A stretch of 64,000 nt of DNA from a virus: positions 70,297 to 134,296 of IMG/VR virus record IMGVR_UViG_3300016665_000824; one strand, 5' to 3'. The notes beneath the pieces were generated by a model. That model was given only the letters and a program-made list of their open reading frames with translations. It ran no database searches and was not told the origin of the DNA. The position numbers were made by a program, and so were the translations under genes. Below are positions 12,519 to 36,496 of this stretch, piece by piece (positions within the stretch are counted from its first letter, which is position 1; each line of letters opens with the position of its first letter).

Positions 12519-12542
12519 AAAAAGCCAGTCGCGGGACTGGCT
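12516..12542 (-). terminator. hairpin with U-run on minus strand
   Basis: agccagtc-gcgg-gactggct preceded on plus strand by A7; would terminate minus-strand (antisense) transcripts inside a plus-strand gene block. Confidence 0.35.
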
Positions 12543-12618
12543 ACAGGTAAAACAACAAAAGACAACTAAGCGGAAATCAACATATACCGAGCATTTGTGG
12601 AGAACAGCTCAGGCACTT

Positions 12619-19701: not shown

Positions 19702-20924
19702 TGAAAGGATACGAACAGACCTGCCCCAAAGTCGAAGCGATCGGGCAAATCAACTTTCACGGCGACGGTGTTTTTACGCCAAACAACTGGTATCACAACA
19801 TCTGTCACAAGAACGGTAAACCCTATCTCGAAGCAATAATTCTTCTTGCGGATATTGTTTCTTGGTATTTGCCCATCTACGAAAGAGATGAAGTCACTGG
19901 CAAGACGATTGGGGTCAGGAAAAAATTCAAGGCAGACAAACTCCAGCGAAACTACGACTCTTTTGCGGACCATTATGGCATGACCAAAGATCAAGCTAGA
20001 AATGCTCTGAAACACCTAGAAAGAGACGGACTCATAGACCTAGAGCTAAGAACAGTCGAAACTTCAGTACAAAAGCTTGGAAATGTTTTGTTTATCGGTG
20101 TTTACCCAGAAAAAATCAAGGATTACACTTTCACCCTCTCGCCAAAAGAACAGACCCCTGTGCTCACAGAAACCGATAGGGGTATCGACAGAAAAGCAGA
20201 GGGGTCTGCACAGAAACAGACAGCACTCCCCACAGAAGCCCAGACAAATACAGATCAATCTACAGATCTTTCTACTGATCAATCTACTAAAAATATAAGA
20301 GCGGATGAATTTTTTGCGATCGCTCCTTCGTCGCAAATCCAAGAAAATTCTTTTCCCGCACAAACAGAAAATCCGAGAATTGAAGAAACCCCAACACCCC
20401 CTACCCCCTCTTCCCCTTCCGCGCCCGAAAATATCGGCAAGGCGATCGCGCCCTCGGTAGCCACCTCAAAACAGGCAGAAGCGTATATGCAGTTTGAGCA
20501 GCGCTTTAGCCAACCAAAACCTCAAAACCGCCACGTACCCAAACTGCTTGTGGAGGCTGGCTATGCAGAATGGCACAACGGCAAACACCCGAACGACTGG
20601 CGCAAATCCTTGATAGATGTTTGCATCCAAAGGAAGAAAAAGCGTGGCGATGAAGCGACTGTAGGTGCAGCCACCGACTTTATTTTTAACGTAATGAAAG
20701 ACTGTATTTCCCTCGGATTCTGGGGTAAGTTCCAAGAGCTTGTTGATCAAGCCCTAAAGCTCGAAGCCGTCGAAGCGATCGCCGCACAACAAAAACAAAT
20801 TGAAGATCAGCGATTCGAGCAACAGCCAGTTGAATCTAACGCCCCCACAATGACTCTTGAACTTCGCAAGCAATATGCTGCCGAATTGAGACGTAAAGCC
20901 AACAACATGAGACTAATTGCTTAA
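19701..20924 (+). CDS. candidate replication initiation / helicase-loader protein
   Basis: 408 aa immediately upstream of and coupled to dnaB (TGATG overlap with previous stop); winged-helix-like N-terminus, low-complexity linker; function inferred from position only. Confidence 0.3.
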   Translation: MKGYEQTCPKVEAIGQINFHGDGVFTPNNWYHNICHKNGKPYLEAIILLADIVSWYLPIYERDEVTGKTIGVRKKFKADKLQRNYDSFADHYGMTKDQARNALKHLERDGLIDLELRTVETSVQKLGNVLFIGVYPEKIKDYTFTLSPKEQTPVLTETDRGIDRKAEGSAQKQTALPTEAQTNTDQSTDLSTDQSTKNIRADEFFAIAPSSQIQENSFPAQTENPRIEETPTPPTPSSPSAPENIGKAIAPSVATSKQAEAYMQFEQRFSQPKPQNRHVPKLLVEAGYAEWHNGKHPNDWRKSLIDVCIQRKKKRGDEATVGAATDFIFNVMKDCISLGFWGKFQELVDQALKLEAVEAIAAQQKQIEDQRFEQQPVESNAPTMTLELRKQYAAELRRKANNMRLIA

Positions 20925-20928
20925 AACT

Positions 20929-22656
20929 ATGAAAGACCCACAACAGATCCAAAGACTCAACGCTCAGATCGAACCTAGCAACGTTGAAGCCGAACAAACG
21001 ATCATTGCGGGGGTTTTTGAAGGTGGAAGCCTTCTTAGCCTAGTCGCCGACGCAATCACACCTGAGATGTTTTTTTCGAGCCTTCTAGGGGCATTTTTTA
21101 GGGCATCGTTGTTTTTGAGAAATAGCGATCGCGACATAAACACCCTAACCTTAGCCGCCGCGCTACAGGAGATGGGTTTTAAAGACTTTTACGGCTTTGA
21201 CAGTATCTCGGCGCTAGTCCACAACACCTATGCCGACATTATGGGCAGCACGTATATTCAAAGTCCAGCCCACTACGAATCTGCCGCCGCCCTAATCCGT
21301 GAAGCCTCCGTAAGGCGAGACCTGATTAAAGCTGGCAGAGCAGCGATCGCCGCAGCCTACGATCAAGAAATATCTGTGCTTGATGCCTGTACTAAAGCTC
21401 AAGATTTGATTGGGGATGCTATGACATCATCTCAGGTTCGTAGTACCGTGTTTGAGGTTGGTACAACCTACACAAACATGTGTGCGGAACTTCTCGATCC
21501 TCAAATTGGAGAGTTCAATCCCGTAATCCCCAGTGGTTATGCGGCGTGGGATGAAATGCTTGAAGGTGGTTTTCGGGGTGCTGAACTCGCGGTTATTGGT
21601 GGAGACTCGGCGATCGGTAAGTCGATGCTCTTGTTTGGTGCGGCATGGAATATGGCGAAATTCCTTTCGGATCAAGGTAGGGTGGGTTATATCGGCTCGA
21701 TGGAAATGTCCACTCGTAGCGTTGTGCATCGCTGGATTGCTTCCGAAGCGCAAGTGGCTTTATCTCGGATGCGTCGCCGAGAATTAAGCGAAGCCGATTG
21801 CGAAAGGATTATGAAGGCATCTAGCGCTGGCGAAATGTTGAATAACCTTGTAATTGACGAGGACAACAAGGCTACTATCCCCCAAATGCTTAACCGAGCC
21901 AAAGAATTTGCACGTAAACATGCTAGAAAATATGGCGGTAGCGGCGAGCTTGGCTTTATGGTTATCGACAACATCAAGATCGCCGAAAAAGGTGGTGACG
22001 ATTTCAACTTGGTTAACCGATACCTCAAAGATCTCAAGGGGATTGCAAAGGATTACAACATCCCGATAATCTCTTTGTCTCAGCTAACTAGAGAATCCCT
22101 GTTAAAAAGTTCTGACAAACGCCCTACTGTTGAGGGGTTGTATGGCGGCAAAGCGATTGAAGAAAATGCTGACGACATTTTTGGCTTGTATCGAGGTGTT
22201 AAGTACGACGATTTCTCTATCCCCACAAACCGAGCTGAGATTATTCGTCTGAAAGGTCGAAACTCAGACCAGTCAAAGGAAAATAGAACGATTTTGCTTG
22301 GCTTCAATGGCGCTCTTTCTACTTTTTACGACCTTGGCGAACCAAAACTAGCCCAAAAATCGGAGCAAAAACAAGCGATCGCCACACCAGTCACCGAAGA
22401 CATTAACTACTTCGGCGATCTCGAAGATGGATGTCAAGTTGTTCTGGATATTTCCTACTCAACACCTGAAGAAAAATCGGAGATCAGCGATCGTATCAAC
22501 GCAAAGCAGCTACCAAAGCCCAATGAAGTCTGTGGAGTAACCCGCCTAAGCGTTTGCGAAACTCCTGAAGTAGGTAAATTTGGGGTTGCCCACCTAATAC
22601 TGCCCGACAACTCCGAAATGAAGGTTGCAGTAGACGAATTGCGCCGAGTCAGTTAG
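20929..22656 (+). CDS. dnaB: replicative DNA helicase DnaB
   Basis: DnaB-like N-terminal domain (NVEAEQTIIAGVF), Walker A GGDSAIGKS, RecA-like core; start set at ATG 20929 (ORF track TTG 20917). Confidence 0.75.
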   Translation: MKDPQQIQRLNAQIEPSNVEAEQTIIAGVFEGGSLLSLVADAITPEMFFSSLLGAFFRASLFLRNSDRDINTLTLAAALQEMGFKDFYGFDSISALVHNTYADIMGSTYIQSPAHYESAAALIREASVRRDLIKAGRAAIAAAYDQEISVLDACTKAQDLIGDAMTSSQVRSTVFEVGTTYTNMCAELLDPQIGEFNPVIPSGYAAWDEMLEGGFRGAELAVIGGDSAIGKSMLLFGAAWNMAKFLSDQGRVGYIGSMEMSTRSVVHRWIASEAQVALSRMRRRELSEADCERIMKASSAGEMLNNLVIDEDNKATIPQMLNRAKEFARKHARKYGGSGELGFMVIDNIKIAEKGGDDFNLVNRYLKDLKGIAKDYNIPIISLSQLTRESLLKSSDKRPTVEGLYGGKAIEENADDIFGLYRGVKYDDFSIPTNRAEIIRLKGRNSDQSKENRTILLGFNGALSTFYDLGEPKLAQKSEQKQAIATPVTEDINYFGDLEDGCQVVLDISYSTPEEKSEISDRINAKQLPKPNEVCGVTRLSVCETPEVGKFGVAHLILPDNSEMKVAVDELRRVS

Positions 22657-24528: not shown

Positions 24529-24793
24529 CACAGTTGGTTTGATTTTTGGTAAGGAAGATAGCAGGACAGAGCAGGAAATCTCTGAGCTTGCGGAGGTCGT
24601 AAAAGCGGCTGGAATTAAGAGAAACCCTGCCATGTTTGCAAGATTTATTTACACACTCGACAAGACAAAAACCTGTCACCCGTCGATTGACCGTGAAGCC
24701 TTTCTGCTAACACTTCAAGAAGTATGGGAAGAGAAGGGACTCCAAGGACTTTCTCTCGCTGAAGAAATATATCAAAGAGGTTTTACAAGATGA
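24521..24793 (+). CDS. hypothetical protein
   Basis: 90-aa ORF. Confidence 0.35.
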   Translation: MSDTVGLIFGKEDSRTEQEISELAEVVKAAGIKRNPAMFARFIYTLDKTKTCHPSIDREAFLLTLQEVWEEKGLQGLSLAEEIYQRGFTR

Positions 24794-25527
24794 TTGAAAG
24801 GCAAGTTAAACTGCTGGTTCTAGACAAAGACGGTACACTCGTTCGCCCCAAATCTGGCAATACCTTCGTCCAGCACCCCGAAGATCAGGAGCTAATCGAA
24901 GGAGTGGCTGAAGCTATTCAGAGGTATGTTGCTGATGGATGGCAGTTGGCGATCGCGTCAAATCAGGGTGGATGCGAAGTGCGATGGTGTCACCCCGCCG
25001 AATTACCTGTAGGTAGTTACTGCAATGTAGATAACATTGCCATCAAGGTTGAATACCTTCAAGACACTGGTGAGTTTATACTCGTAAATGGGCATCACCC
25101 ACTACCAAAAACTAGGTTTGCGAAGTTCCAATACAAGACTCTCGGCATAGCGATCGCAGAGATGCAGTATGCGATGAAGCTGATCGGCATTCAGTATCAT
25201 GGTCTATTCTGTCCAGACATGCAAGGGAATGAATGCTACATGACTTCGGACTTTGCTGCTCCGCCATTACACAAGGTTGATAGATACAAACACTTAATAG
25301 GCTCGTTCCGTAAGCCCAGTGGTGGAATGTTGCTAGCATTAAAGCAGCACTTTGAAACACATCTTGATGATGTTGATCGGCTGCTCATGATCGGCGATCG
25401 TCCCGAAGATTTGGGATCGGCTCAAGCCGCAGGATTCGATTTTGTGTGGGCAGAAGACTGGCGAAATAACGAACTAGACAAAGTTCTGCCCTACAGGAGC
25501 GAAGAATGGATCGCTCTGAACTCCTAA
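24790..25527 (+). CDS. HAD-superfamily (subfamily IIIA-like) phosphatase
   Basis: Motif I LDKDGTL, motif II ASNQGG, conserved Lys in FRKPSGGML, motif IV MIGDRPED; same fold as polynucleotide 3'-phosphatases and GmhB. Confidence 0.6.
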   Translation: MIERQVKLLVLDKDGTLVRPKSGNTFVQHPEDQELIEGVAEAIQRYVADGWQLAIASNQGGCEVRWCHPAELPVGSYCNVDNIAIKVEYLQDTGEFILVNGHHPLPKTRFAKFQYKTLGIAIAEMQYAMKLIGIQYHGLFCPDMQGNECYMTSDFAAPPLHKVDRYKHLIGSFRKPSGGMLLALKQHFETHLDDVDRLLMIGDRPEDLGSAQAAGFDFVWAEDWRNNELDKVLPYRSEEWIALNS

Positions 25528-25805
25528 CTCGCATCCAAGTCCAGCGAATGTGGCTAGAGGACATCCGTGGCAAGTCTCTAGCTCCTCAGTTGGAGATTTG
25601 GAAGAACAAATACCTTGCCGCAAATAATCTCACGCATCTGGATGCTCAGGGGCTGGAGCAACTGCTTAAGGCTCTTGAGTCTATGACTAAGGCTACGGTG
25701 AGTAACGCCGAGGAATTGGATAGTCAGATGCGCGAGAGGATTAAGAGTGGCGACTACTCGATTCGATTTGTTGAAAAGATTGTTGAAGATGATGAATATT
25801 TTTAG
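25506..25805 (+). CDS. hypothetical protein
   Basis: 99-aa ORF; 3' end carries 29-bp repeat R1. Confidence 0.35.
   Translation: MDRSELLTRIQVQRMWLEDIRGKSLAPQLEIWKNKYLAANNLTHLDAQGLEQLLKALESMTKATVSNAEELDSQMRERIKSGDYSIRFVEKIVEDDEYF
25776..25804. repeat. 29-bp direct repeat R1 copy a (aagattgttgaagatgatgaatattttta)
   Basis: Identical copy at 26321-26349. Confidence 0.7.
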
Positions 25806-25824
25806 GAGGAGGTAAACCCCAACC

Positions 25825-26040
25825 ATGCGAAACGCCTACTTAACACTTTTTGTGATCAACACCCGTTCAGGACTCGCAGTTAATTATTCAATCAATACCG
25901 CAGCCGACCAGAAGGAGGCTAGAGCCGATGCTCTACTACTCATCGATGAGAGATATCGAGGTCAAAATATTCAGGTTCTAGAAACATCTATTATTCCAAA
26001 CGAAGTTATCGATCAGGTTTATGAGTCTCGACACGAGTAA
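25825..26040 (+). CDS. hypothetical protein
   Basis: 71-aa ORF. Confidence 0.35.
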   Translation: MRNAYLTLFVINTRSGLAVNYSINTAADQKEARADALLLIDERYRGQNIQVLETSIIPNEVIDQVYESRHE

Positions 26041-26059
26041 ACTCGATCGCCACTTTTTC

Positions 26060-26088
26060 AGATCTGAATTACCACAAAAGCACAATGA
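26060..26088. repeat. 29-bp direct repeat R2 copy a (agatctgaattaccacaaaagcacaatga)
   Basis: Identical copy at 26801-26829; both include a start codon. Confidence 0.7.
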
Positions 26089-26318
26089 TTTTAGAGGCCT
26101 ATTATGAAACGTGGGTATCTCGCCCCATTCAAAAGAGAGCTAAAGGTCGAGCCACCTATAGTAAGCCGCAGTGGGAGCATACCTCAGACACAGAAGAAGA
26201 GGCGATCGCTCACAACAAGATGCTTTCGGCTTACTACCCCGACTGGAAGATTGAAATCAGGGCTGTCGAACAAAAACGAGAATACTGGGATGTCAAGACT
26301 GCGGCAGTTCGAGATTAA
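26085..26318 (+). CDS. hypothetical protein
   Basis: 77-aa ORF starting inside R2 copy a. Confidence 0.35.
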   Translation: MILEAYYETWVSRPIQKRAKGRATYSKPQWEHTSDTEEEAIAHNKMLSAYYPDWKIEIRAVEQKREYWDVKTAAVRD

Positions 26319-26320
26319 AG

Positions 26321-26349
26321 AAGATTGTTGAAGATGATGAATATTTTTA
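26321..26349. repeat. 29-bp direct repeat R1 copy b
   Basis: Identical to 25776-25804. Confidence 0.7.
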
Positions 26350-26359
26350 AGAGGTTAAT

Positions 26360-26851
26360 ATGGCAAGTGTCAAGCATTATTTAAGTTGCCCAGCTAAGCC
26401 CTACGAAGAAGGGATACCCTTATACTCCGATCGCCTGAGAGAATGGTTTCACGATATCGGTGATGTCTGGGAATACTACGAAGATCAGATCGGAGAAGAT
26501 GAGGATATTGATCTTGAATGGGCGGAAGCCAAGCAATCGCCTCAAGGTATTTGTGAAATGGCTCGTCTTTTCTTAGGTAGACCAGTTTATTTGCCGTGGG
26601 CTGAGATTCCTGAATTTGATCTACCTGATGGTGTTGACGATATCTCGGAAATACTGCCGCCAAGCCACGAGATCAACATAAAACTTGCCGAGTTAAACAA
26701 GCTTATCGAAGAAACAAAGCTGGTTGTTTGCTACGAGGAGTCTAGCTACCGCCCAGATCCAGAAACCTTGGACTTTAAGTGCGCGATCGTCGCTTTTTTT
26801 AGATCTGAATTACCACAAAAGCACAATGAAAGCTCGACAGTTCGAGATTAA
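26360..26851 (+). CDS. hypothetical acidic protein
   Basis: 163-aa ORF; 3' end runs through R2 copy b. Confidence 0.35.
   Translation: MASVKHYLSCPAKPYEEGIPLYSDRLREWFHDIGDVWEYYEDQIGEDEDIDLEWAEAKQSPQGICEMARLFLGRPVYLPWAEIPEFDLPDGVDDISEILPPSHEINIKLAELNKLIEETKLVVCYEESSYRPDPETLDFKCAIVAFFRSELPQKHNESSTVRD
26801..26829. repeat. 29-bp direct repeat R2 copy b
   Basis: Identical to 26060-26088. Confidence 0.7.
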
Positions 26852-27080
26852 ATTTAGAAACCATCCAGAGTGCGATCGCCTAGTCGAAGCCACCAGTCAT
26901 GCCAAAGCCAAGATGAAGCTCGCCTACGAGTTGGTTGAGGCGGGAGTATTTAATACTTTTGGAGAGGCTTTACTGGCGATCGCCACCTGCCGAGTCTTAC
27001 AGCCAATGAAGCGAGGGAAACCCGAAGGGTGGTATCGGGTGAACCCTAAACGAAAAACAACAAGGAACAAAAAGCAGTGA
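26826..27080 (+). CDS. hypothetical basic protein
   Basis: ORF 26724..27080; start moved to ATG 26826 inside R2 copy b (MKARQFEIKF...). Confidence 0.35.
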   Translation: MKARQFEIKFRNHPECDRLVEATSHAKAKMKLAYELVEAGVFNTFGEALLAIATCRVLQPMKRGKPEGWYRVNPKRKTTRNKKQ

Positions 27081-27643
27081 TTGACAAAACAAGATTAGAA
27101 ATAGCGAACAAGGTCTTAGCAGTACTCAGTGAGTCTTATCGTAAGACTGAGTTTGTAGTTAGCGATCGCAACCGACTTTACCTGAACTGGTTCGATTATT
27201 ACGGCAAGGCATATAGTCGTCCTTGGGCAACAAGATGTGGCTCGGCGTATCCAAGCTGGAGCGACAAACTGTCTTGCGGCGGCACGATGATGACGGCGAT
27301 CGCGCAGTTGGCTTTATGGGTTCGCGGATTGCCTTGCTACCCCATTCAGACTTGGGAGTATTGGTGCGGAGAGACGGTTGGAATGAGAGGTGGGGAGAAA
27401 ATTCTTCCACTCTTAAGGGACAGTGGCTGTTATCCCGATGGACTTAGTTGTGCTTTTTGTGGGGCTAGGGATGTCGAGAGGGATTGGTATTGGTTCTCGC
27501 CTCACCCTAAGCACTCTGGGTTTGGATGCCAGCGCCCAGAATGCCAGCCAATTATAGATCTTAGGAATAGTTTGGACGTAAAACAACAAAATCGCGTCAA
27601 AAGAATTTTATCCTCGCAACGTATCCCTGCTTCCGTAAAATAG
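27077..27643 (+). CDS. hypothetical Cys/Trp-rich protein
   Basis: 188 aa with many Cys and Trp (CGSAYPSW, CAFCG, CQRPEC); GTG start. Confidence 0.4.
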   Translation: MIDKTRLEIANKVLAVLSESYRKTEFVVSDRNRLYLNWFDYYGKAYSRPWATRCGSAYPSWSDKLSCGGTMMTAIAQLALWVRGLPCYPIQTWEYWCGETVGMRGGEKILPLLRDSGCYPDGLSCAFCGARDVERDWYWFSPHPKHSGFGCQRPECQPIIDLRNSLDVKQQNRVKRILSSQRIPASVK

Positions 27644-27790
27644 TTTGATCGGTAACGTAAATTTGTGGCAATATTAACAGAAGCGTTTCAAGAACAATGA
27701 ACAAACTAATTGCCTATCTGGTAAACAAAATCGAATCTGCTTACCACACTGCAAGATTCCTGCTATCTATACTTAAATTGGAGTTTCCCC

Positions 27791-28105
27791 ATGCTAGACC
27801 CCATAGAGCTACAGGTCAGTATTTTCGAGATGGAGTTCACGCAGGCGATCGCGCACCAATCCCTCCCAGAAGCAAGAAAGGCAGTAGCCGATTATTTGCA
27901 GCTACTGGAGCACAAGAAGGACTCGACAATCAGGCTGAGACCCCAAGTGACATCCTTGGTTTCTGGGCTGGAGACCCTCTCGATAGATTTACTAATTCAA
28001 TCAACCGAAAGTCGGGAGGAACTCAAGGCGATCGCGGTAAGGATTTGCAGGATGTTGCTGAAACTAAACACGCTGCTCAAGGAAGCGGTGAGCGGGATCT
28101 GCTAA
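27791..28105 (+). CDS. hypothetical helical protein
   Basis: 104-aa ORF; overlapping 212-aa ORF 27697..28335 in another frame looks non-coding through this stretch. Confidence 0.35.
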   Translation: MLDPIELQVSIFEMEFTQAIAHQSLPEARKAVADYLQLLEHKKDSTIRLRPQVTSLVSGLETLSIDLLIQSTESREELKAIAVRICRMLLKLNTLLKEAVSGIC

Positions 28106-28331
28106 CCCAGCAGGACATTATCCTAGACAAGATGCGTCGGAAGCAATCGGAATTTGAAGACTACTACGTTTTTAGCACTCACGACATAGTGACCCTATGT
28201 GAGGACAGTCATCTGGACTGGGACTTGGCTTTTGACCAGCTAATAGCTTTAAACAAGAGGAATCTAGTTGCTATAAATCCGACATATTGCGATCGCACAG
28301 GCAAATTTATCGGATTGTTGTGGGGTTTAAA

Positions 28332-29276
28332 ATGAGTAAAACCGTAGCCACGATGTATTCTGGCTTTGGCGGAGTTGATCAGGGTTTCGTTTTGGCAGGG
28401 TATACGCCAGTCTTTGCGATCGATAACAATCCTGATGCAGTAGCGGTTTATATCGAGAATTTTGGCAACCACTGTCTAGAGAAGGACGTTTGTGAGTTTG
28501 ATTATTCAAGAGTTAAAGCAGATCACCTCCATGCTTCTCCAAGCTGCAAAGAGTTTAGTAGCGCCAATCACCGTAGTAGCGAAACCGATCTCGATATTCG
28601 ATGCGCCCAAGCTACGGTTAAGGCGATCGCACAGATAAACCCTCAAACATTTTCCCTCGAAAATGTAAAGCAGTACGCTAAGTCTAAGTCTTTTGATTTG
28701 ATTAGGCGATCGCTACGAGAAATGGGCTACGCCTGCAACGTAACCGTAGTCAACGCGAAGGATTTCGGTGTATCCCAATCACGAGAAAGGCTAATTCTTC
28801 GAGCATGGGTTAAATCCCGCAAACGCCCTAGACCTTTGGCGTTGTACAAACAGTGTTTAACAATGGGGTGGCATGACGCGATCGCCGATTTAATCCCCAC
28901 TCTCAAACCACAACCATTGAATAATTGGCAGCTAGCCTCTCTTGAGGAGCAGGGTATAGACCCCACCAACCTAACTGCACTGGTTAGCAAAGATGGGTCT
29001 CGCAAGAAAAAAGGCTTTAAAAATACTTTTGCCTTGGTAATCCCCTCGTCCAAGCCTTGCCCAACCCTCAAGGCAATGGGGCATAATCAGCACTGTCAGC
29101 AGTATTCGATTGTGGTTAACGGTGTTGGTTATCGGATTTCTACCGAGGCGATCGCGAGACTAATGAGCTTTCCCGACTCATTCAAATTCTCAGGAGTGAA
29201 TTATAAAGACTGTATGGGTTTAGGTAATGCAGTACCGCCATTATTGGTAAGAGCGATCGCGGAAAGTTTTGCTTAA
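28332..29276 (+). CDS. DNA (cytosine-5)-methyltransferase
   Basis: Motif I YSGFGG, motif IV PSCKEFS (Pro-Cys catalytic dipeptide), ENV, QSRER, GNAV; start at ATG 28332. Confidence 0.8.
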   Translation: MSKTVATMYSGFGGVDQGFVLAGYTPVFAIDNNPDAVAVYIENFGNHCLEKDVCEFDYSRVKADHLHASPSCKEFSSANHRSSETDLDIRCAQATVKAIAQINPQTFSLENVKQYAKSKSFDLIRRSLREMGYACNVTVVNAKDFGVSQSRERLILRAWVKSRKRPRPLALYKQCLTMGWHDAIADLIPTLKPQPLNNWQLASLEEQGIDPTNLTALVSKDGSRKKKGFKNTFALVIPSSKPCPTLKAMGHNQHCQQYSIVVNGVGYRISTEAIARLMSFPDSFKFSGVNYKDCMGLGNAVPPLLVRAIAESFA

Positions 29277-29309
29277 AAATCCATAAAACTACCACAAAAT
29301 CGAGTTATC

Positions 29310-29579
29310 ATGAAGGAATCTGATTTAGACAATGCGATCACGCAGGCAGAACAGTTTTTAATTCTCGCAAAAGAGCTAAAAGCTGGCTTTCAAGCTCAGA
29401 AGAAGGTGATCGCCGAGGCAGAAGCCGAGGTGATTCGCGAAAATCTATCTGAGACATACGCGGAAAATAAAATCTTTTTCGCCCGTTACAACAACAAGAT
29501 GGAGGGAACGAGACTAATGGGTGCAGTAAAGCATTCCTGTGTTACCCTCTCCCTCTTTTTAGCAAAGCTGAGGAAATAA
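29310..29579 (+). CDS. hypothetical protein
   Basis: 89-aa ORF. Confidence 0.35.
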   Translation: MKESDLDNAITQAEQFLILAKELKAGFQAQKKVIAEAEAEVIRENLSETYAENKIFFARYNNKMEGTRLMGAVKHSCVTLSLFLAKLRK

Positions 29580-29821
29580 TGACCCAGTATATACAGACCG
29601 AATTCTGCCTTGATTTAAGGCAAGGTGATACCGAATCACTGCCTACATGGATGAAAAGCGTAGGCGATCGCCCACCGATTCTCCCTTTAAAACCACTCTC
29701 AATTCAATTGCCACTATTCGATACAACACCCTATGCCTCAACCCAAGCTCCTGCTAAAACCAAAACCGCCAGAGGCGATCGCTATAAGCAAGTTGCTATT
29801 TCGACCCCGCAACACCTCTAG
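29579..29821 (+). CDS. hypothetical protein
   Basis: 80-aa ORF coupled to previous (stop/start overlap). Confidence 0.3.
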   Translation: MTQYIQTEFCLDLRQGDTESLPTWMKSVGDRPPILPLKPLSIQLPLFDTTPYASTQAPAKTKTARGDRYKQVAISTPQHL

Positions 29822-30179
29822 CCCCAACCAGTCCCGCAGATTGATGTCTGATGGTCTGGTTGCTCACTATCCCGTACACGCCGAAGCAAGCTTGGTAATT
29901 ACTGAATATACCTCCGAGATACTTCAGGAGCACCAGTCTTGCTTGGGTAAGGGTATTGATCACTTCGCGATCGCTATCTACTGGGGTAACAAAATCCGTA
30001 TTGAGGCTAAACCCCTTGAGTGATTGCGCTGGCTACAGGATTCTAATTGGCGTACTGCTTTTTGGAAAGAGTTAGGCGATCGGGCGGAGAGCTATAACCC
30101 CACCACCCATCTCAATATCGGGTACATCTCTGGAGATGGGTTGGGATGCACAAAATTACAGGCGATTTTGGAGGTGTGA

Positions 30180-30686
30180 TTGATACTTGTAGACAGGCAA
30201 ATAAGAAGGTTGTGCGAACAAGGAATGGTAACACCTTTCGACCCATCCCTTCTCAACTCTCACTCTATCGATGTCCGAATAGGCGATCGCGCCAAGATTG
30301 AAGACGGAGAAGATCTTAAGGATATTCACTTGGATTGGTACGACAAGGAGAACCCCTACAAGGTTAGACCCAACCAGTTCTTCCTATCCTGTACCCTAGA
30401 ACTTGTTGACATCCCCCCTAATATCGCGGCAGAGTTTCGACTCAAATCTACCAGAGCGAGAGAAGGTTGGGTTCATGCTCTGGCGGTATGGATAGATGGT
30501 GGGTTTAACGGCTCTATTACTCTTGAGTTGGGCAATGCTCGTCAACACAAAAGCCTACCCATATACACGGGTATGAAAATTGGTCAGTTGATATTTCACG
30601 AAACTGAGACCCCTGACGTTAGCTACGCAGAAGTCGGGAGGTATAACGGCTATACCACGGTGCAGGAGGCTAAGCCAGATGCCTAG
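30180..30686 (+). CDS. dcd: dCTP deaminase family protein (dUTPase superfamily)
   Basis: N-terminal LVDRQIRRL...VTPFDPSLLNSHSIDVRIG resembles Dcd; TTG start 6 nt after GGAGGT. Confidence 0.65.
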   Translation: MILVDRQIRRLCEQGMVTPFDPSLLNSHSIDVRIGDRAKIEDGEDLKDIHLDWYDKENPYKVRPNQFFLSCTLELVDIPPNIAAEFRLKSTRAREGWVHALAVWIDGGFNGSITLELGNARQHKSLPIYTGMKIGQLIFHETETPDVSYAEVGRYNGYTTVQEAKPDA

Positions 30687-31071
30687 ACGTAAAAACTACT
30701 CTGTTCCAGAACCACCACCGATCGCAACCGATGAACCCGCAATCATCGACCTAGCAATCGAGGATATTGAAACCTATGGTGGTGAATTTAAGATACTTAT
30801 TCCCCACCTGCGCGATCGCCTAGCTATGGGCATAGCTAAACATGGTACTCCCCTCCAGAAATCCAACGGGCGAAACCATAGGGTCGATGGATTTCAAGAG
30901 CTTGAAGACTTTATTGCTTACATGAAGCAAGGTCTTGAGCGAGGGGATGAGGAGATGAGGTGGTTTTATTATCAAGGGCTTATCCTTGCCACCGATTTCG
31001 CCAAGCTCCTAGAGGGCAAGCAATTTAACTACAACGTCAAGAAGAAAACCGTACTAAGACCAAACGAATAG
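30679..31071 (+). CDS. hypothetical protein
   Basis: 130-aa ORF. Confidence 0.4.
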   Translation: MPRRKNYSVPEPPPIATDEPAIIDLAIEDIETYGGEFKILIPHLRDRLAMGIAKHGTPLQKSNGRNHRVDGFQELEDFIAYMKQGLERGDEEMRWFYYQGLILATDFAKLLEGKQFNYNVKKKTVLRPNE

Positions 31072-31077
31072 GAGCCA

Positions 31078-31410
31078 GTGATGACCACAAAGAAGACAAT
31101 CCCGCAAGAGCCAAAGATTGATTTTGCCTTAATTGCAGAGGCGATCGCCTTTAAAACCCACGATGCTATACGAAGCGCCTTGAGATCTACCGATTCTCTA
31201 TATGTGGAGAAGGCTTCCGAGGTAGCGATCGGGGACTTGGTGGCAAATATTTCCGATCTAACCGTGGGTGCTAGCTGTCTAGATAGCGTCGGCACGGTAC
31301 TGGAGATTCGGGATGGCGAAATCGAAGTTCGCCGCATAGATGGAGTTACTTGGTGTGTGCTCCCTGCGATCGGTACTTATGTTGCGGCAAAAGGGGTTAG
31401 TAATGGTTGA
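31078..31410 (+). CDS. hypothetical protein
   Basis: 110-aa ORF. Confidence 0.4.
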   Translation: MMTTKKTIPQEPKIDFALIAEAIAFKTHDAIRSALRSTDSLYVEKASEVAIGDLVANISDLTVGASCLDSVGTVLEIRDGEIEVRRIDGVTWCVLPAIGTYVAAKGVSNG

Positions 31411-31615
31411 TTTTTTTGGCGTAGCGATCGGTAAATACTATCGCAATATTAAAACTGGAGACATATACCAAGTAGTTCTTCTTTCATTTTCATCTGAGTT
31501 GGGTACGGAACTTCTAGTTAGCTATAAGAAACAAGGAGACGCGCTTCCTTGGACTCGTCCCTTAGCTCTTTTTATTATTAAATTTGAGGAGGTCGGAAGT
31601 AATGTTCCAGCCTAA
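31403..31615 (+). CDS. DUF1653-like small protein
   Basis: GKYYRNIKTGDIYQVV ... LPWTRPLALF resembles the DUF1653 pattern; start at ATG 31403. Confidence 0.35.
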   Translation: MVDFFGVAIGKYYRNIKTGDIYQVVLLSFSSELGTELLVSYKKQGDALPWTRPLALFIIKFEEVGSNVPA

Positions 31616-32456
31616 AGTAACGATTATTGCCGACAGCGTAAATCCGTGGGGGACGAGGCTGACCTCCTTTGCTCTTACCTATCCACGGTTTATACATGCA
31701 GAAATGTTGCGGCACAGAGTCTTTTCTCGCTGTGTATCAAGTTCACGGGCTATTCCGATCGCCAAGATGATCAAAGCTGTCGAAGAAGCCGATCTGTATC
31801 CAGTCTTTTGGGGTGCAGCGCAAAAAGGCATGGCGGCTGACCACGAAATTAAAGAGGAAGATAAATGGTACGCGATCGCTATATGGGACGAACACAGAAA
31901 AGCGACCATAGAAGCGGTCAAAAAGCTCTCCGACTTGGAACTGCACAAGCAAATTCCGAATAGACTGCTAGAACCATTTGCGCCAGTAACCGAACTGGTC
32001 ACGGCAACTGAATATCAAAATTTCTTTGAGCTGCGAGATCACCCTGCGGCTCAGCCAGAAATTCAGGCGATCGCCAAGCTAATGCGTAAAGCATATACGG
32101 AAGGCAAACCCAAAGAGTGCGAGCTAGGTCAATGGCACATCCCGTTCATAGACCCAGAGAAAGACAAGGATTTAGATCCTGAAATTGTACTTAAGGTTGC
32201 GGTCGGTCGGTGCGCCAGAGTGAGCTATCTAACTCATGACGGCATTCGAGATCCACAGGAGGATGTCAGATTGTGCGATCGCCTATGGAATAGCAAGCCA
32301 AAGCACCTGTCTCCGTTTGAACACGTAGCAAGGGTCGCTCCTTGGAAAACCAAGAACGATAACTTTGATGAATGGGCTAGCCTACGCCATGAGCTAAAGG
32401 TTGGCGCATTAATTTATGAGAATGGAAAAATCAAGGAGGGTCGTCGTGCTAAATAA
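31602..32456 (+). CDS. thyX: FAD-dependent thymidylate synthase ThyX
   Basis: ThyX signature RHRxxSxxxxSxR present (LRHRVFSRCVSSSRAIP); GAGGAGG upstream of ATG 31602. Confidence 0.85.
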   Translation: MFQPKVTIIADSVNPWGTRLTSFALTYPRFIHAEMLRHRVFSRCVSSSRAIPIAKMIKAVEEADLYPVFWGAAQKGMAADHEIKEEDKWYAIAIWDEHRKATIEAVKKLSDLELHKQIPNRLLEPFAPVTELVTATEYQNFFELRDHPAAQPEIQAIAKLMRKAYTEGKPKECELGQWHIPFIDPEKDKDLDPEIVLKVAVGRCARVSYLTHDGIRDPQEDVRLCDRLWNSKPKHLSPFEHVARVAPWKTKNDNFDEWASLRHELKVGALIYENGKIKEGRRAK

Positions 32457-32895
32457 CGAACAGATTGAAGCGATCGCCGAATCTCTTTATTGTAAAACCA
32501 GTGACGGTTTTTGGGAAGACTCACCTCCCGAAAAGAAACAATCAGTCAAGGAGGGAATAGCTTTTATCGCAAACAGAGCGATCGCTATCCAATCAGAGCA
32601 AGACCGCCGCAGCTTCATCGCCGTCGGGAAGTATATCGGCGTTACATTCACCTCTGAGACCGACGTGGTTTCCGCAGTCTACGACAAGCTCGACGAAATC
32701 ATGACGGTGTTTAGAGAGCATAGTCAAGAGATTGCGATCGCGCAGCAAATTAAAACCTTGAACAATCTACTGGAGAAATATGTCAAGCAACAGGAAGCCT
32801 CGCCTATTTGTACAGGGGCAGTGGGTGAAGAAACGGGAAGATCCTTTTGTGCTGGAGAAGAGTGCGTCGGAGGCTCTGAGGATTCAAACCTCTAG
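32416..32895 (+). CDS. hypothetical protein
   Basis: 159-aa ORF; 3' portion overlaps next ORF. Confidence 0.3.
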   Translation: MRMEKSRRVVVLNNEQIEAIAESLYCKTSDGFWEDSPPEKKQSVKEGIAFIANRAIAIQSEQDRRSFIAVGKYIGVTFTSETDVVSAVYDKLDEIMTVFREHSQEIAIAQQIKTLNNLLEKYVKQQEASPICTGAVGEETGRSFCAGEECVGGSEDSNL

Positions 32896-33100
32896 GAGAG
32901 GTGAATCCAACTACGGCGTTGTTATTTCGTCAACAGAAAACAACAAAATTAACACAAAACTACGGATTTTATTTTACCCTCAAGGTAAGATAGAGGAGGT
33001 TGCAAAGAGTCGGCTAGACTTTGCGATCGCCCCTACTGATATCAATAGCGCTAGCCATAAATTTTTGGATACTTACAATGAACGAATTAGAACTGCTTAA
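32780..33100 (+). CDS. hypothetical protein
   Basis: 106-aa ORF, overlapping neighbours; true boundaries uncertain. Confidence 0.3.
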   Translation: MSSNRKPRLFVQGQWVKKREDPFVLEKSASEALRIQTSRRGESNYGVVISSTENNKINTKLRILFYPQGKIEEVAKSRLDFAIAPTDINSASHKFLDTYNERIRTA

Positions 33101-33515
33101 CCAAAAGGTCGCAGAAAAAGCTGGCTGGATTGACATTCACGAATGGAGTCCTAACCCTAAATACCCGCGTCCGCGAAAATCTTACAAAGGAACAAACCCT
33201 GCCCATCCTGAACTAGGGGCTTTTATCCCAAACTATGTCGAGGACTTGACCGCGATCGCAAAGGTATTCACCTCCCTAGGTATTGAATGGACTCTCTCCA
33301 GCATTGGACACGCAAACACCGTAGACCCAGAAGAGATAATAACTTCTGGACTGTGTGACAGTCCCGCGATCGCACTTTGCCAACTCCTAATAAACATTGA
33401 TCCCGAACCGATAAAACCCAAAGTCGAATGCGAAAAGTGTAAGACTGCTCCTAGAGACTTTCAGGCAGAAGCAGCGAAAAACAATTCTGGAGTTATCGAG
33501 GTGAGTTTTGGATGA
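33078..33515 (+). CDS. hypothetical protein
   Basis: ORF 33021..33515; start moved to ATG 33078 (MNELELLNQ...). Confidence 0.4.
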   Translation: MNELELLNQKVAEKAGWIDIHEWSPNPKYPRPRKSYKGTNPAHPELGAFIPNYVEDLTAIAKVFTSLGIEWTLSSIGHANTVDPEEIITSGLCDSPAIALCQLLINIDPEPIKPKVECEKCKTAPRDFQAEAAKNNSGVIEVSFG

Positions 33516-33769
33516 TGACTGTCGAGTATTCCATGCCCTGTCCACATTGCGGCGAACCTGCAACCCATAAGATTGGATTCACAAAGAAGACTGGTTATCG
33601 AAGATTCAGGTGTCCTACATGTGGCAAAAACTTTAGTAACTCTCCCCATCCCAAGGGTAGCCGCCCTCACGGAGAGGAGCCTAAGCCTAAGTCTGTAATT
33701 GCAATGCGATCGCGTCAAAAGAAAAAACAAGAAGCTCTGCTCGCAAAAGAAAATCATGAAATTAGCTAG
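33512..33769 (+). CDS. C4 zinc-ribbon protein
   Basis: CPHCGEPATH ... CPTCGKNF followed by basic tail. Confidence 0.4.
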   Translation: MMTVEYSMPCPHCGEPATHKIGFTKKTGYRRFRCPTCGKNFSNSPHPKGSRPHGEEPKPKSVIAMRSRQKKKQEALLAKENHEIS

Positions 33770-34043
33770 ACTACAAAAAATATTCGAGGAATTACAGACG
33801 GCTCAAAAGGAGGAGTGCGGGTTTGGGGATACCACTCCTTACTCACTCCTGATTGAGCGGATGCTTCAAGACGAAGATTCTGATTTCTGCCTAATGATTG
33901 TCGAGAGAGCGATCAACATCGGAAGAAAGAAAGAAGGGATCTTTGATCGCCAAAACCCTGAACCTGTTGTGCCAGTGATTGCTCCTGTTAAGAGAGGGCG
34001 GAAGCCCAAGGCTCAAGCAATATATGGAGCGACGGATGGCTAA
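33756..34043 (+). CDS. hypothetical protein
   Basis: ORF 33699..34043; start at ATG 33756. Confidence 0.35.
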   Translation: MKLARLQKIFEELQTAQKEECGFGDTTPYSLLIERMLQDEDSDFCLMIVERAINIGRKKEGIFDRQNPEPVVPVIAPVKRGRKPKAQAIYGATDG

Positions 34044-34503
34044 GCGATCGCAACCTCAACCACTTCTATCCGACGAAGAATTAAGGGACTATGCGATCGC
34101 CAAGTATATCGGGAACTTGCTTAAAGCGGAGAACGAGTCAATTGTTTTTCGCTTGCAAGGCTCGGTAGTACCCAAAGCACGACCAAGAGTGACTAAAACT
34201 GGTCAGGCATATATACCCCCGAACTATCGAGCATGGAAAGAAGAGGCGATCGCGTGTTTGAGAGGGATTAAGTTTCTCTACCCGCAGCACACTTTCCCGC
34301 TCGAACAAGCTAACGCCATGTTCACCCTTGACGGCAAGCATAGCCGAGGCAGTGACGGAGACAATATTTCTGGGGCATTAAATGATGCTCTAGTACAGGC
34401 AGGGATAATGAAGGAAGACAATCTACTCCATATTCCTGAGCAGGCGGTTATTTTGAATTATGACAAGACGCGATCGCCATCCACATTAATTGTTTTGTAC
34501 TAG
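34036..34503 (+). CDS. rusA: Holliday-junction resolvase RusA-like
   Basis: VPKARPRV ... DGDNISGALNDALVQAGIMKEDNLL resembles the RusA catalytic-core pattern (DxDN...K...D.L). Confidence 0.5.
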   Translation: MAKRSQPQPLLSDEELRDYAIAKYIGNLLKAENESIVFRLQGSVVPKARPRVTKTGQAYIPPNYRAWKEEAIACLRGIKFLYPQHTFPLEQANAMFTLDGKHSRGSDGDNISGALNDALVQAGIMKEDNLLHIPEQAVILNYDKTRSPSTLIVLY

Positions 34504-34507
34504 AACT

Positions 34508-34864
34508 ATGTCTATAAAAGTAAAAATCCTCCCAAAAGATGTTCTATGGCCACCCGAATTAGAGGGCTATGGTTTTGATGTTACTTCTGCCGACGTAGGT
34601 ATCTGTGGAAAGAATGCCTATTGCCGTCTTCGGCGCTCTAAAATGAAGGCTGTTGAAGCGCTGTTTAGGGCGATCAAAGGCCAACAGAATTGTTCCGCGA
34701 TATCAAGCGTGAATTTTGGCAGCTACTTTAGCGCTTCCTATAACGCGGACGGATCTATAACCTCAAGACCAAGAACAATGATGATCGATGGTGAGGAATA
34801 CCTTGAATCATACATAGAAATCAATTACAGCTATCCGATCGCGATCATTGATCCCGTCGATTAA
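34508..34864 (+). CDS. hypothetical protein
   Basis: ORF 34490..34864; start at ATG 34508. Confidence 0.35.
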   Translation: MSIKVKILPKDVLWPPELEGYGFDVTSADVGICGKNAYCRLRRSKMKAVEALFRAIKGQQNCSAISSVNFGSYFSASYNADGSITSRPRTMMIDGEEYLESYIEINYSYPIAIIDPVD

Positions 34865-34944
34865 CTGACGTATATTTGTGGTAGTATTATTTTATTAGGC
34901 GATCGCCACAAGAATCGCATTAAACTTTTATCAGGTGAATAAAT

Positions 34945-35301
34945 ATGAGTTATCCCCAAGACAGGGAGACTGCTAATGACTATCAAGAGTATGTCGTGAA
35001 GTATTCTAAGGGTTATGCTATCTATGGAACCGCAAATGCGTTGCCAGTCTATTCGCTCGGACTTGCTGGAGAAACTGGAGAAGTCTCAGAACTGTTGAAG
35101 CGGCATTTTAGAGGTGACGATGTTAGCCCTGAAGCCTTTAAGGAAAAACTAACGCTCGAACTGGGTGATGTAATTGCCTATGCAGCGCTAATTGCCCATT
35201 CTTTTGATATCCGCTTGGATGACGTGCTTCAGGCTAATCTGCACAAGGCGGCTAAACGAAACGCCGCAAATACTCAACTAGGATCGGGAAGCGATCGCTA
35301 A
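34945..35301 (+). CDS. MazG-like nucleotide pyrophosphohydrolase
   Basis: AGETGEVSELLKRH and ELGDVIAYAALIA motifs typical of the MazG/all-alpha NTP-PPase fold. Confidence 0.5.
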   Translation: MSYPQDRETANDYQEYVVKYSKGYAIYGTANALPVYSLGLAGETGEVSELLKRHFRGDDVSPEAFKEKLTLELGDVIAYAALIAHSFDIRLDDVLQANLHKAAKRNAANTQLGSGSDR

Positions 35302-36133: not shown

Positions 36134-36496
36134 ATGATAAACGAAGCTATTTTTGTTGGCAGAGTAGGCAGAAATCCCGATATCAAATATTTTGAATCGG
36201 GCAAGTGTAACGCGACGTTATCGATCGCTGTTAATCGTAAAGGCAAAGACCTCCCTCCCGACTGGGTGAACCTTGTTGCATGGGAGAAGACCGCCGAAGT
36301 CTTTGCTCAGTACGTTCGTAAGGGCGACCTTATCGAGGTTGAAGCTAATCTAAAATTTGAGACATGGGAAGATCGCCAGACAGGGGAGCCTAGATCTAAA
36401 GCCGTGTTCCAAGTCGAGAGGTTAGGCTTGCTAGGTAAATCAAGAGGCAGTAGCCAGAATGATGCCGACTACGGAGACTATGACGACGACTTCTAG
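36134..36496 (+). CDS. ssb: single-stranded DNA-binding protein
   Basis: OB-fold N-terminus (AIFVGRVGRNPDIKYFESGK...), acidic tail ...DYGDYDDDF. Confidence 0.8.
   Translation: MINEAIFVGRVGRNPDIKYFESGKCNATLSIAVNRKGKDLPPDWVNLVAWEKTAEVFAQYVRKGDLIEVEANLKFETWEDRQTGEPRSKAVFQVERLGLLGKSRGSSQNDADYGDYDDDF

What the first reader, a model, noticed from the sequence alone, without database searches (positions are those of the whole stretch)
24790..35301. Nucleotide-metabolism set: HAD phosphatase, dCTP deaminase, ThyX, MazG-like
The element encodes a dUTPase-superfamily dCTP deaminase, a flavin-dependent thymidylate synthase (RHRxxSxxxxSxR motif), a MazG-like NTP pyrophosphohydrolase and a HAD-IIIA phosphatase in one plus-strand block, interspersed with many unknown genes. 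This could simply boost dTTP supply, but the same enzyme types also take part in phage DNA hypermodification and in countering nucleotide-depletion defences.
Basis: partly seen in the sequence, partly recalled or inferred. Interest (0 to 1): 0.45.

Follow-up and report, generated by a model that had tools for sequence, protein, structure and literature searches.

The report
Cyanophage thymidylate-supply genes, mostly ordinary
A phage-like element from a cyanobacterium carries a dCTP deaminase and a flavin-dependent thymidylate synthase that together most likely make extra thymidine nucleotides for its own replication, as in other known phages, and nothing in the window shows that its DNA carries exotic bases.

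Summary
They are a HAD-IIIA phosphatase (24790-25527), a dCTP deaminase (30180-30686), a ThyX (31602-32456) and a MazG-like pyrophosphohydrolase (34945-35301), and the catalytic motifs I checked are intact in each.

They do not form a conserved four-gene set. Related metagenomic phage contigs keep the order Dcm methylase, DCD, a 130-aa ORF, a 110-aa ORF, ThyX, a 159-aa ORF. The HAD gene is absent from every relative examined. MazG is present in only one of the two relative lineages whose loci reach that position.

The same DCD, small ORFs, ThyX layout with the same ThyX subtype occurs in the N4-like phage G7C. Nostoc phages A-1 and N-1 also carry DCD plus a ThyX.

The best reading is a thymidylate-supply module (dCTP to dUMP to dTMP) inside the replication block of a cyanobacterial siphovirus-like element. 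No ThyA-type hydroxymethylase, 5-HMU kinase or other known hypermodification domain was detected in the window, and ThyX argues against uracil-DNA.

Two side observations are worth more than the main finding:
- This ThyX subtype looks like a circular permutant of canonical ThyX.
- The 130-aa helical protein of unknown function, whose start overlaps the DCD stop, recurs directly downstream of DCD in distant phages.

The parts
24790..25527 (+). HAD-IIIA phosphatase, 245 aa. It has an insertion of about 65 aa after motif II. It is an accessory gene and not part of the conserved module.
   Evidence: Pfam PNK3P E 1e-8. TIGR01662 55.6 bits > 44.6, but below the GmhB and DNA-3'-phosphatase equivalog cutoffs. 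Motifs I-IV are present. It is absent from relatives L001-L005. The only phage homologue is CL131 gp120.
28332..29276 (+). C5-cytosine DNA methyltransferase, 314 aa. It is a conserved neighbour upstream of the module and is listed for context.
   Evidence: Pfam DNA_methylase E 1e-39. The gene call in the identical contig starts at the ATG that overlaps the upstream stop. Identity is 73-85% in L001-L003 and L005; there is no tblastn match in L004, where a different, longer PF00145 gene sits at that position.
30180..30686 (+). dCTP deaminase of the dUTPase superfamily, 168 aa. This is the first enzyme of the conserved core.
   Evidence: TIGR02274 equivalog 102.1 bits > 92.8. The best solved relatives are the M. 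tuberculosis enzyme 2qxx/2qlp (2QLP is described as bifunctional dCTP deaminase/dUTPase in PMC5519681), then 4xjc, which is bifunctional by my recollection. S90, R94, D106 and E116 align with Mtb S102, R106, D119 and E129.
30679..31071 (+). 130-aa helical protein of unknown function. Its ATG overlaps the DCD stop. It is conserved in all relatives.
   Evidence: 60-100% identical homologues. The family has 5089 50%-cluster representatives at E<=1e-3. The AF2 model has pLDDT 92.6 and four helices. No solved-structure match was found. DCD lies immediately upstream in distant loci L012, L013, L028 and L031.
31078..31410 (+). Conserved ORF of about 110 aa, function unknown, lying between the 130-aa ORF and ThyX.
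   Evidence: 45-76% identity at the same position in L001, L003-L005 and L019-L022. No Pfam or PHROG hit.
31602..32456 (+). Flavin-dependent thymidylate synthase ThyX, 284 aa, of the circularly permuted subtype. This is the second enzyme of the conserved core.
   Evidence: Pfam Thy1 49.4 bits > 24.8, covering profile positions 60-187 only. phrog_85 E 1e-61. More than 7600 homologues, including chromosomal Pseudanabaena genes. More than 1000 phage records, including N4-like phages. The match to solved ThyX structures is non-collinear.
32416..32895 (+). Conserved ORF of about 150-159 aa, function unknown. It overlaps the ThyX stop.
   Evidence: 49-68% identity at the same position in L001-L005 and L019-L022. 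No Pfam or PHROG hit.
34945..35301 (+). MazG-like NTP pyrophosphohydrolase, 118 aa. It is an accessory gene, present in one relative lineage (L001).
   Evidence: Pfam MazG 31.7 bits > 22. phrog_229 E 9e-18. The E43xxE46 ... E72xxD75 metal-binding motif is present. 52% identity in L001 and absent from L003-L005.

Best explanation
The region is the nucleotide-supply part of the replication gene block of a large siphovirus-like cyanobacterial phage, or phage-plasmid.

The working core is two enzymes:
- The dCTP deaminase takes dCTP and yields dUTP. If it is bifunctional like its nearest solved relative, it yields dUMP directly.
- ThyX then methylates dUMP to dTMP, using methylene-tetrahydrofolate and reduced flavin.
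- Host kinases finish the route to dTTP.

The net effect is to shift pyrimidine deoxynucleotides from C to T and raise dTTP for phage DNA synthesis.

The other two enzymes are accessory:
- The MazG-like enzyme is optional. It probably hydrolyses (d)NTPs to (d)NMPs, either clearing dUTP or recycling dCTP/dGTP as shown for cyanophage S-PM2 MazG.
- The HAD-IIIA phosphatase is an independently acquired gene whose substrate is undetermined.

Shown here: family membership, intact catalytic motifs, conserved gene order.
Inferred: the products, the flux and the physiological benefit.
For: - DCD passes NCBI's equivalog cutoff. Its catalytic Ser/Arg/Asp/Glu align with M. tuberculosis Dcd:dut.
- ThyX carries the signature motif and conserved equivalents of the dUMP-binding arginines and the PFEH histidine.
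- The ThyX subtype occurs in over 1000 phage records annotated as thymidylate synthase. It also occurs among housekeeping genes in the Pseudanabaena biceps chromosome.
- DCD and ThyX keep their positions in all relatives, even where the DCD allele has been swapped (33-38% identity while neighbours are 67-95%).
- N4-like phage G7C has the same layout, DCD (gp26), small ORFs, ThyX (gp30), and its notes link both genes to N4.
- Nostoc phages A-1/N-1 carry DCD plus a 'thymidylate synthase complementing protein'. Their authors read these genes as dTTP synthesis (PMC4916379).
- S-PM2 MazG prefers dGTP and dCTP (PMC6850273).
- The module lies between DnaB and SSB in one + strand block.
Against: - No enzyme activity was measured.
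- Whether DCD releases dUTP or dUMP is unknown.
- No phage dUTPase or thymidylate kinase was found in the window.
- ThyX scores below the TIGR02170 equivalog cutoff (48.5 < 87.9) and has a permuted topology, so identical chemistry is assumed, not shown.
- Three conserved small ORFs inside the module have no assigned function.
- The host and its GC content are unknown, so the benefit of a C-to-T shift cannot be judged.
Confidence: 0.75

Rival explanations
1. The genes feed a DNA hypermodification pathway. DCD and a pyrophosphatase would make dUMP, a thymidylate-synthase homologue would make a modified dUMP such as 5-hydroxymethyl-dUMP, and unknown ORFs would decorate it further.
For: T-modified phages do carry a dCTP deaminase, a dUTP pyrophosphatase and a thymidylate synthase homologue (bioRxiv 10.1101/2025.03.26.645540). 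Several conserved ORFs in the module are uncharacterised. The ThyX is an atypical, permuted form.
Against: - Known pathways use a ThyA-family hydroxymethylase, not ThyX (PMC8989533).
- No ThyA, 5-HMU kinase, aGPT-Pplase, glycosyltransferase or radical-SAM domain was found in the window.
- The same ThyX subtype is a chromosomal gene among housekeeping genes in Pseudanabaena and is common in N4-like phages.
- The element also encodes ordinary Dam and Dcm methyltransferases, which is the usual alternative way of protecting DNA.
Confidence: 0.04
2. The genes build uracil-DNA. DCD would supply dUTP, while the HAD phosphatase and MazG-like enzyme would destroy dTMP and dTTP.
For: dU-DNA phages combine a dCTP deaminase with a dTMP phosphatase or a dTTP pyrophosphatase (PMC12697855). 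The enzyme types here resemble that combination superficially.
Against: - The element encodes its own thymidylate synthase, which works against removing T.
- The dU-DNA enzymes belong to other families: CDA-fold deaminases, PF06941, HD and HAM1.
- HAD is missing from all relatives and MazG from one of the two lineages where it could be checked, while ThyX is always kept.
- No uracil-DNA-glycosylase inhibitor candidate was identified.
Confidence: 0.01
3. The set counters host defences that deplete or signal through nucleotides. It would do so by re-balancing dNTP pools during infection, or by hydrolysing signalling nucleotides (MazG) or phosphorylated intermediates (HAD).
For: HAD and MazG behave as variable accessory genes, as anti-defence genes often do. 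HAD homologues are spread across cyanobacterial mobile elements among small unknown ORFs.
Against: - There is no homology to any characterised anti-defence protein.
- A phage dCTP deaminase would worsen dCTP depletion, not relieve it.
- S-PM2 MazG showed no activity on (p)ppGpp (PMC6850273).
- Nothing here tests this reading.
Confidence: 0.08
4. The HAD enzyme is a polynucleotide 3'-phosphatase for nucleic-acid end healing and is unrelated to nucleotide pools.
For: The best Pfam family is PNK3P. The CL131 homologue is annotated as polynucleotide kinase/phosphatase. A distant homologue locus, L009 in Leptolyngbya, has two HAD copies near a tRNA-ligase cyclic phosphodiesterase domain.
Against: - It scores higher to GmhB-type sugar-bisphosphate phosphatases.
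- It is below the DNA-3'-phosphatase equivalog cutoff (34.8 < 107.65).
- No kinase or ligase partner was found in the window.
- It carries an insertion of about 65 aa in a cap-like position, which is more typical of small-molecule phosphatases (inference).
Confidence: 0.3

Closest known systems
N4-like phage nucleotide genes (N4/G7C gp26 dCTp deaminase and gp30 ThyX)
   Same: The ThyX is the same subtype (42% identity over 88% of the query). The layout is the same, with DCD followed by small ORFs and then ThyX within about 1.1 kb on one strand.
   Different: The phage family (podovirus, Schitoviridae) and the host are different. No homologue of the 130-aa ORF was detected in those phages by tblastn. 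No MazG or HAD is annotated in the 12.8-kb stretch shown.
Nostoc cyanophages A-1 and N-1 (PMC4916379)
   Same: These are phages of cyanobacteria that encode dCTP deaminase, a thymidylate synthase complementing protein, RusA and DNA methylases. Their authors interpret these genes as dTTP synthesis.
   Different: They are myovirus-like genomes of 65-68 kb that also carry thymidylate kinase and a DNA polymerase B. No DNA similarity to this window was found.
Cyanophage S-PM2 MazG (PMC6850273)
   Same: It is a small phage MazG-type pyrophosphohydrolase. tblastn finds Synechococcus and Prochlorococcus phage matches among 269 records.
   Different: The closest matches are actinophage MazG-like proteins at 35-42% identity. 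The substrate preference here is untested.
[quoted passage not shown]
   Same: It is the best solved relative (E 1e-16), and the catalytic Ser, Arg, Asp, Glu and Ala115-equivalent residues are aligned.
   Different: Similarity is low. The N-terminal half here is about 12 residues shorter. Bifunctionality cannot be read from the sequence.
Aphanizomenon phage vB_AphaS-CL131
   Same: It has a related portal (30% identity) and the only clear phage homologue of the HAD gene, gp120 at 31% identity over 91% of the query.
   Different: The CL131 HAD lacks the insertion (171 aa). It sits next to a transcriptional regulator among unknown ORFs, with no DCD or ThyX annotated within 9 kb on either side.
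Thymidine hypermodification and dU-DNA pathways
   Same: They use a dCTP deaminase activity and nucleotide phosphohydrolases upstream of DNA synthesis.
   Different: Those pathways use ThyA-type hydroxymethylases with kinases and transferases, or they eliminate thymidylate altogether. Here there is a ThyX and none of the downstream enzymes.

Membership tests
dCTP deaminase (TIGR02274 / PF22769, dUTPase superfamily) | Score above the curated equivalog cutoff | tested here: met
   102.1 bits against a cutoff of 92.8. Pfam DCD 94.2 bits against 27.
dCTP deaminase (TIGR02274 / PF22769, dUTPase superfamily) | Catalytic Ser, Arg and Glu, plus the conserved Asp | tested here: met
   S90, R94, D106 and E116 align with S102, R106, D119 and E129 of 2qxx.
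dCTP deaminase (TIGR02274 / PF22769, dUTPase superfamily) | Product (dUTP, or dUMP if bifunctional) and homotrimeric assembly | not testable with these tools
   There is only relative similarity: 64 bits to Mtb Dcd:dut against 35.5 bits to the E. coli Dcd entry 1xs1. That E. coli Dcd is monofunctional is my recollection, not a tool result.
Flavin-dependent thymidylate synthase ThyX (PF02511 / TIGR02170) | Pfam gathering threshold | tested here: met
   49.4 bits against 24.8, but only profile positions 60-187 of 191 are matched.
Flavin-dependent thymidylate synthase ThyX (PF02511 / TIGR02170) | NCBIfam equivalog cutoff | tested here: not met
   48.5 bits against 87.9. The permuted topology explains the shortfall.
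Flavin-dependent thymidylate synthase ThyX (PF02511 / TIGR02170) | ThyX signature RHRxxSxxxxSxR | tested here: met
   RHRVFSRCVSSSR at aa 37-49. Most family members have THR in place of RHR.
Flavin-dependent thymidylate synthase ThyX (PF02511 / TIGR02170) | Collinear full-length match to canonical ThyX | tested here: not met
   Family profile positions 200-250 match canonical residues about 21-68, and positions 106-170 match canonical 133-199. The profile becomes collinear only on a tandem or permuted T. maritima sequence.
Flavin-dependent thymidylate synthase ThyX (PF02511 / TIGR02170) | Conserved substrate- and flavin-site residues outside the signature | tested here: met
   R121, R145, H235 and H241 are invariant in the family alignment. 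They align to the canonical NLR..AQWEI and PFEH segments. Their residue roles come from my knowledge of T. maritima ThyX.
MazG-type NTP pyrophosphohydrolase (PF03819) | Pfam gathering threshold and the ExxE...ExxD metal-binding motif | tested here: met
   31.7 bits against 22. E43, E46, E72 and D75 are present. Similarity to YpjD and dCTPP1 structures is weak.
MazG-type NTP pyrophosphohydrolase (PF03819) | Substrate specificity | not testable with these tools
   No NCBIfam model is matched.
HAD-IIIA hydrolase (TIGR01662) | Subfamily cutoff and HAD motifs I-IV | tested here: met
   55.6 bits against 44.6. DxDGT, SNQ, K175 and GDxxxD are present.
Polynucleotide 3'-phosphatase (TIGR01664) or GmhB (NF006506) | Equivalog cutoffs | tested here: not met
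   34.8 bits against 107.65 for the DNA 3'-phosphatase, and 62.6 bits against 178 for GmhB. No kinase domain is present.
Thymidine hypermodification pathway | ThyA-family dUMP hydroxymethylase plus 5-HMU DNA kinase, aGPT-Pplase or an amino-acid transferase | tested here: not met
   No such Pfam domain was found in any ORF of 50 aa or more in window 1-59033, nor in the precomputed hits for the remainder. Uncharacterised ORFs remain, so absence is not proven.
dU-DNA biosynthesis | dCTP deaminase together with removal of thymidine nucleotides and no thymidylate synthesis | tested here: not met
   The element encodes ThyX and keeps it in all relatives. The enzyme families differ from those of PBS1, DSS3_VP1 and PhiR1-37.

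The most novel reading that the evidence does not exclude
The conserved unit may be DCD, 130-aa, 110-aa, ThyX and 159-aa, not just DCD plus ThyX. In that reading the three uncharacterised small proteins change what the pathway does. The 130-aa helical protein, which recurs directly downstream of DCD in unrelated phages, would act as a DCD partner that alters its product, its regulation by dTTP or its coupling to ThyX. The circularly permuted ThyX would have chemistry or partners that differ from canonical ThyX. At the extreme, the output would be a non-canonical pyrimidine nucleotide.
Probability: 0.07. Interest if true: 0.6.

Novelty: new member of a known kind. Interest (0 to 1): 0.27.

Why it matters
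As a nucleotide-metabolism set, this adds one more example of phages carrying their own dCTP-to-dTMP route, so little changes.

Two by-products could matter more:
- A very large ThyX subfamily appears to be a circular permutant of the ThyX fold that has been solved. It includes N4-like phages and chromosomal genes in Pseudanabaena and a Cytophagales genome. Curated ThyX models under-score it for that reason.
- A widespread uncharacterised phage protein family has a clade that is tightly linked to dCTP deaminase genes. That gives a testable lead to its function.

Tried and rejected
1. The 130-aa ORF as the missing dUTPase step (an all-alpha MazG-like pyrophosphatase). This was suggested by its helical bundle and an ELED motif. 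It is not supported:
- hhalign against the window's MazG gave probability 0.4%.
- A family profile against PDB sequences found nothing.
- BFVD returned only uncharacterised viral proteins.
- Longer family members scanned carried no informative Pfam domain beyond one sub-threshold HTH hit.

2. A close known phage. Megablast of the region against 50,697 phage records found nothing.

3. The search for related loci with the broad 130-aa alignment failed because no stretch was conserved enough. Narrower queries gave 6, 3, 1 and 4 loci.

4. The afdb50 fold library was unavailable.

5. Mono- versus bifunctional DCD. The literature I read does not give sequence rules I could apply. The swapped DCD allele in L001 is about equally distant from the solved dCTP deaminase entries.

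6. tRNA genes: none in the window.

7. The look-up for the ORF at 62878-63405 found no record.

Full report
**What the window is**

The 64-kb window is phage-like throughout. It encodes:
- a portal (3257-4912, minus strand);
- a DnaG primase and a DnaB helicase;
- a Dam-type N6-adenine methyltransferase and a C5-cytosine methyltransferase;
- RusA, SSB and a pol III beta clamp;
- a ParB-like protein, an M23 peptidase and an HNH nuclease.

The portal is most similar to those of the cyanobacterial siphoviruses S-CBS4, Aphanizomenon phage CL131 and PaV-LD. The octamer GCGATCGC, the cyanobacterial HIP1 repeat, occurs 186 times where about 2 are expected. This points to a cyanobacterial host and a long association with it. 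The sequence is identical over the stretches fetched to part of a 134,398-bp metagenomic contig. Megablast of the region against 50,697 phage records found nothing.

**Checking the observation**

- **HAD (24790-25527).** It matches PNK3P and passes the HAD-IIIA subfamily cutoff. It is below the equivalog cutoffs for GmhB and for DNA 3'-phosphatase. All four HAD motifs are present. An insertion of about 65 aa follows motif II.
- **DCD (30180-30686).** It passes the TIGR02274 equivalog cutoff. Its best solved relative is the M. tuberculosis bifunctional enzyme, followed by 4xjc. Catalytic Ser90, Arg94, Asp106 and Glu116 are aligned.
- **ThyX (31602-32456).** It carries RHRVFSRCVSSSR and matches Pfam Thy1 and phrog_85.
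- **MazG-like protein (34945-35301).** It passes the Pfam threshold and has the ExxE...ExxD metal-binding motif.

**Is it a functional set?**

I fetched relatives through the ThyX homologues. Three lineages were compared with the window: L001/L002 at 81% ThyX identity, L003-L005 at 67%, and L019-L022 at 58-92%.

They all share this order: DnaB, several small ORFs, a 212-224-aa ORF, a C5-cytosine methylase, small ORFs, DCD, a 130-aa ORF, a 110-aa ORF, ThyX, a 159-aa ORF. Where the loci extend further, RusA, a 151-aa ORF and SSB follow.

- The HAD gene is absent from all of them.
- MazG is present in L001 and absent from L003-L005. L002 and L019-L022 end before that position.
- The DCD allele is replaced by a 33-38% identical one in L001 and L019-L022, while flanking genes stay 67-95% identical. 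So a DCD function is kept at that position even when the gene itself is exchanged.
- HAD homologues elsewhere lie in other cyanobacterial mobile elements, and in CL131, without adjacent DCD or ThyX.

The conserved functional unit is therefore DCD plus ThyX, together with three small unknown ORFs. It is not the four enzymes.

**Mechanism**

The DCD to ThyX route converts dCTP to dUMP and then to dTMP. dUMP is reached either directly or through dUTP and a dUTPase. Host kinases would complete dTTP synthesis.

This pair is already known in phages:
- G7C has DCD (gp26) and this same ThyX subtype (gp30) about 1.1 kb apart with small ORFs between them, and its record notes link both genes to N4.
- Nostoc phages A-1/N-1 carry DCD and a ThyX, and their authors read them as dTTP synthesis.

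MazG may sanitise dUTP, or may recycle dCTP and dGTP as measured for S-PM2 MazG. The HAD substrate cannot be decided from sequence.

**Rival readings**

- **Thymidine hypermodification.** It starts from a ThyA-family hydroxymethylase and needs kinases and transferases. None was detected in the window.
- **Uracil-DNA.** Such phages pair a deaminase with enzymes that destroy thymidine nucleotides, and those enzymes come from other families. A conserved ThyX contradicts that logic.
- **Counter-defence.** This role could not be tested.

**Side finding 1: ThyX topology**

phmmer found no solved ThyX, and curated models matched only the middle of their profiles. A profile of 24 family members hit solved ThyX chains non-collinearly. 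Profile positions 200-250 matched the canonical N-terminal segment ending in PFEH, and positions 106-170 matched the canonical C-terminal helices.

Against a tandem or permuted T. maritima sequence, the profile aligned as one collinear stretch across the junction. It agrees with the fragments printed.

This indicates a circular permutation shared by the whole subfamily. That subfamily has more than 7600 hits. It includes N4-like phages and a Pseudanabaena chromosomal gene that sits among ftsEX, smc and other housekeeping genes. Two literature searches found no mention of it.

**Side finding 2: the 130-aa ORF**

Its start codon overlaps the DCD stop. It belongs to a family with 5089 50%-cluster representatives at E<=1e-3, which has no Pfam domain and no solved relative. 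The AF2 model is confident (pLDDT 92.6) and shows four helices, but it matches only uncharacterised viral proteins.

In 4 of 15 more distant loci (L012, L013, L028, L031) a DCD gene lies immediately upstream. These four are the family members most similar to the window's protein. In actinophages and in Mx4 the context differs. My idea that it is a MazG-like dUTPase was not supported.

**Verdict**

The plain interpretation, dTTP supply, is supported for DCD plus ThyX. The four-gene grouping and the hypermodification reading are not supported. The finding is a new member of a known kind and of modest interest.

Noticed in passing
window 31602-32456; relatives P0001-P0120; phage hits H1-H25: This ThyX subtype appears to be a circular permutant of canonical ThyX. 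The canonical N-terminal segment of about 60 residues (ARVSF...PFEH) lies at the C-terminus here. This explains the partial Pfam and TIGRFAM hits and the lack of any phmmer hit in the PDB. The subtype is shared by N4-like phages and by a chromosomal Pseudanabaena gene. It was not found in two literature searches.
   Followed up: partly
window 30679-31071; L012 2174-2530; L013 678-1097; L028 2989-3372; L031 2986-3234: A 130-aa four-helix protein of unknown function belongs to a family with 5089 50%-cluster representatives at E<=1e-3. It lies immediately downstream of a dCTP deaminase gene in this lineage and in 4 of 15 distant loci. No solved or annotated structural relative was found.
   Followed up: partly
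window 30180-30686 against L001 8045-8665 and L019 3309-3773: The DCD gene has been swapped for a 33-38% identical allele in otherwise closely related contigs, where neighbours are 67-95% identical. Selection therefore seems to act on the function at that position and not on the particular gene.
   Followed up: partly
whole window; Dam 11601-12518; Dcm 28332-29276: The HIP1 octamer GCGATCGC occurs 186 times in 64 kb, against about 2 expected. It produces frequent Ala-Ile-Ala tripeptides in the ORFs. The element encodes both a Dam-class and a C5-cytosine methyltransferase. HIP1 contains GATC and CGATCG.
   Followed up: no
window 14579-16336, 20917-22656, 36134-36496, 44004-45185, 59816-60448: The element encodes DnaG, DnaB, SSB and a pol III beta clamp, but no DNA polymerase was detected in the window. 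It also has a ParA-type ATPase with an RHH protein, and the contig is 134 kb. This suggests a phage-plasmid lifestyle that relies on the host polymerase.
   Followed up: no
window 12472-13122 and 52600-53190; L007 12606-13315: A DUF4326 protein and a DprA/SLOG-like protein are present in the window. A DUF4326 plus YAcAr pair also lies a few kb from a HAD homologue in the unrelated contig L007.
   Followed up: no
window 29579-29821 and 29733-30023: Two overlapping + strand ORFs in different frames both have conserved translations in relatives (51-62% and 73-75% identity). This could reflect a frameshift, a miscalled start or a true overlap.
   Followed up: no
L001 4284-5465: A relative carries an IS605 OrfB/TnpB-type gene inserted between the homologue of window ORF 26360-26851 and the methylase region.
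   Followed up: no
L009 6879-8543 and 193-585: A Leptolyngbya contig has two paralogous HAD-IIIA genes about 600 bp apart, and a tRNA-ligase cyclic phosphodiesterase domain protein about 6 kb away. This hints at an end-healing role for some members of this HAD family.
   Followed up: no
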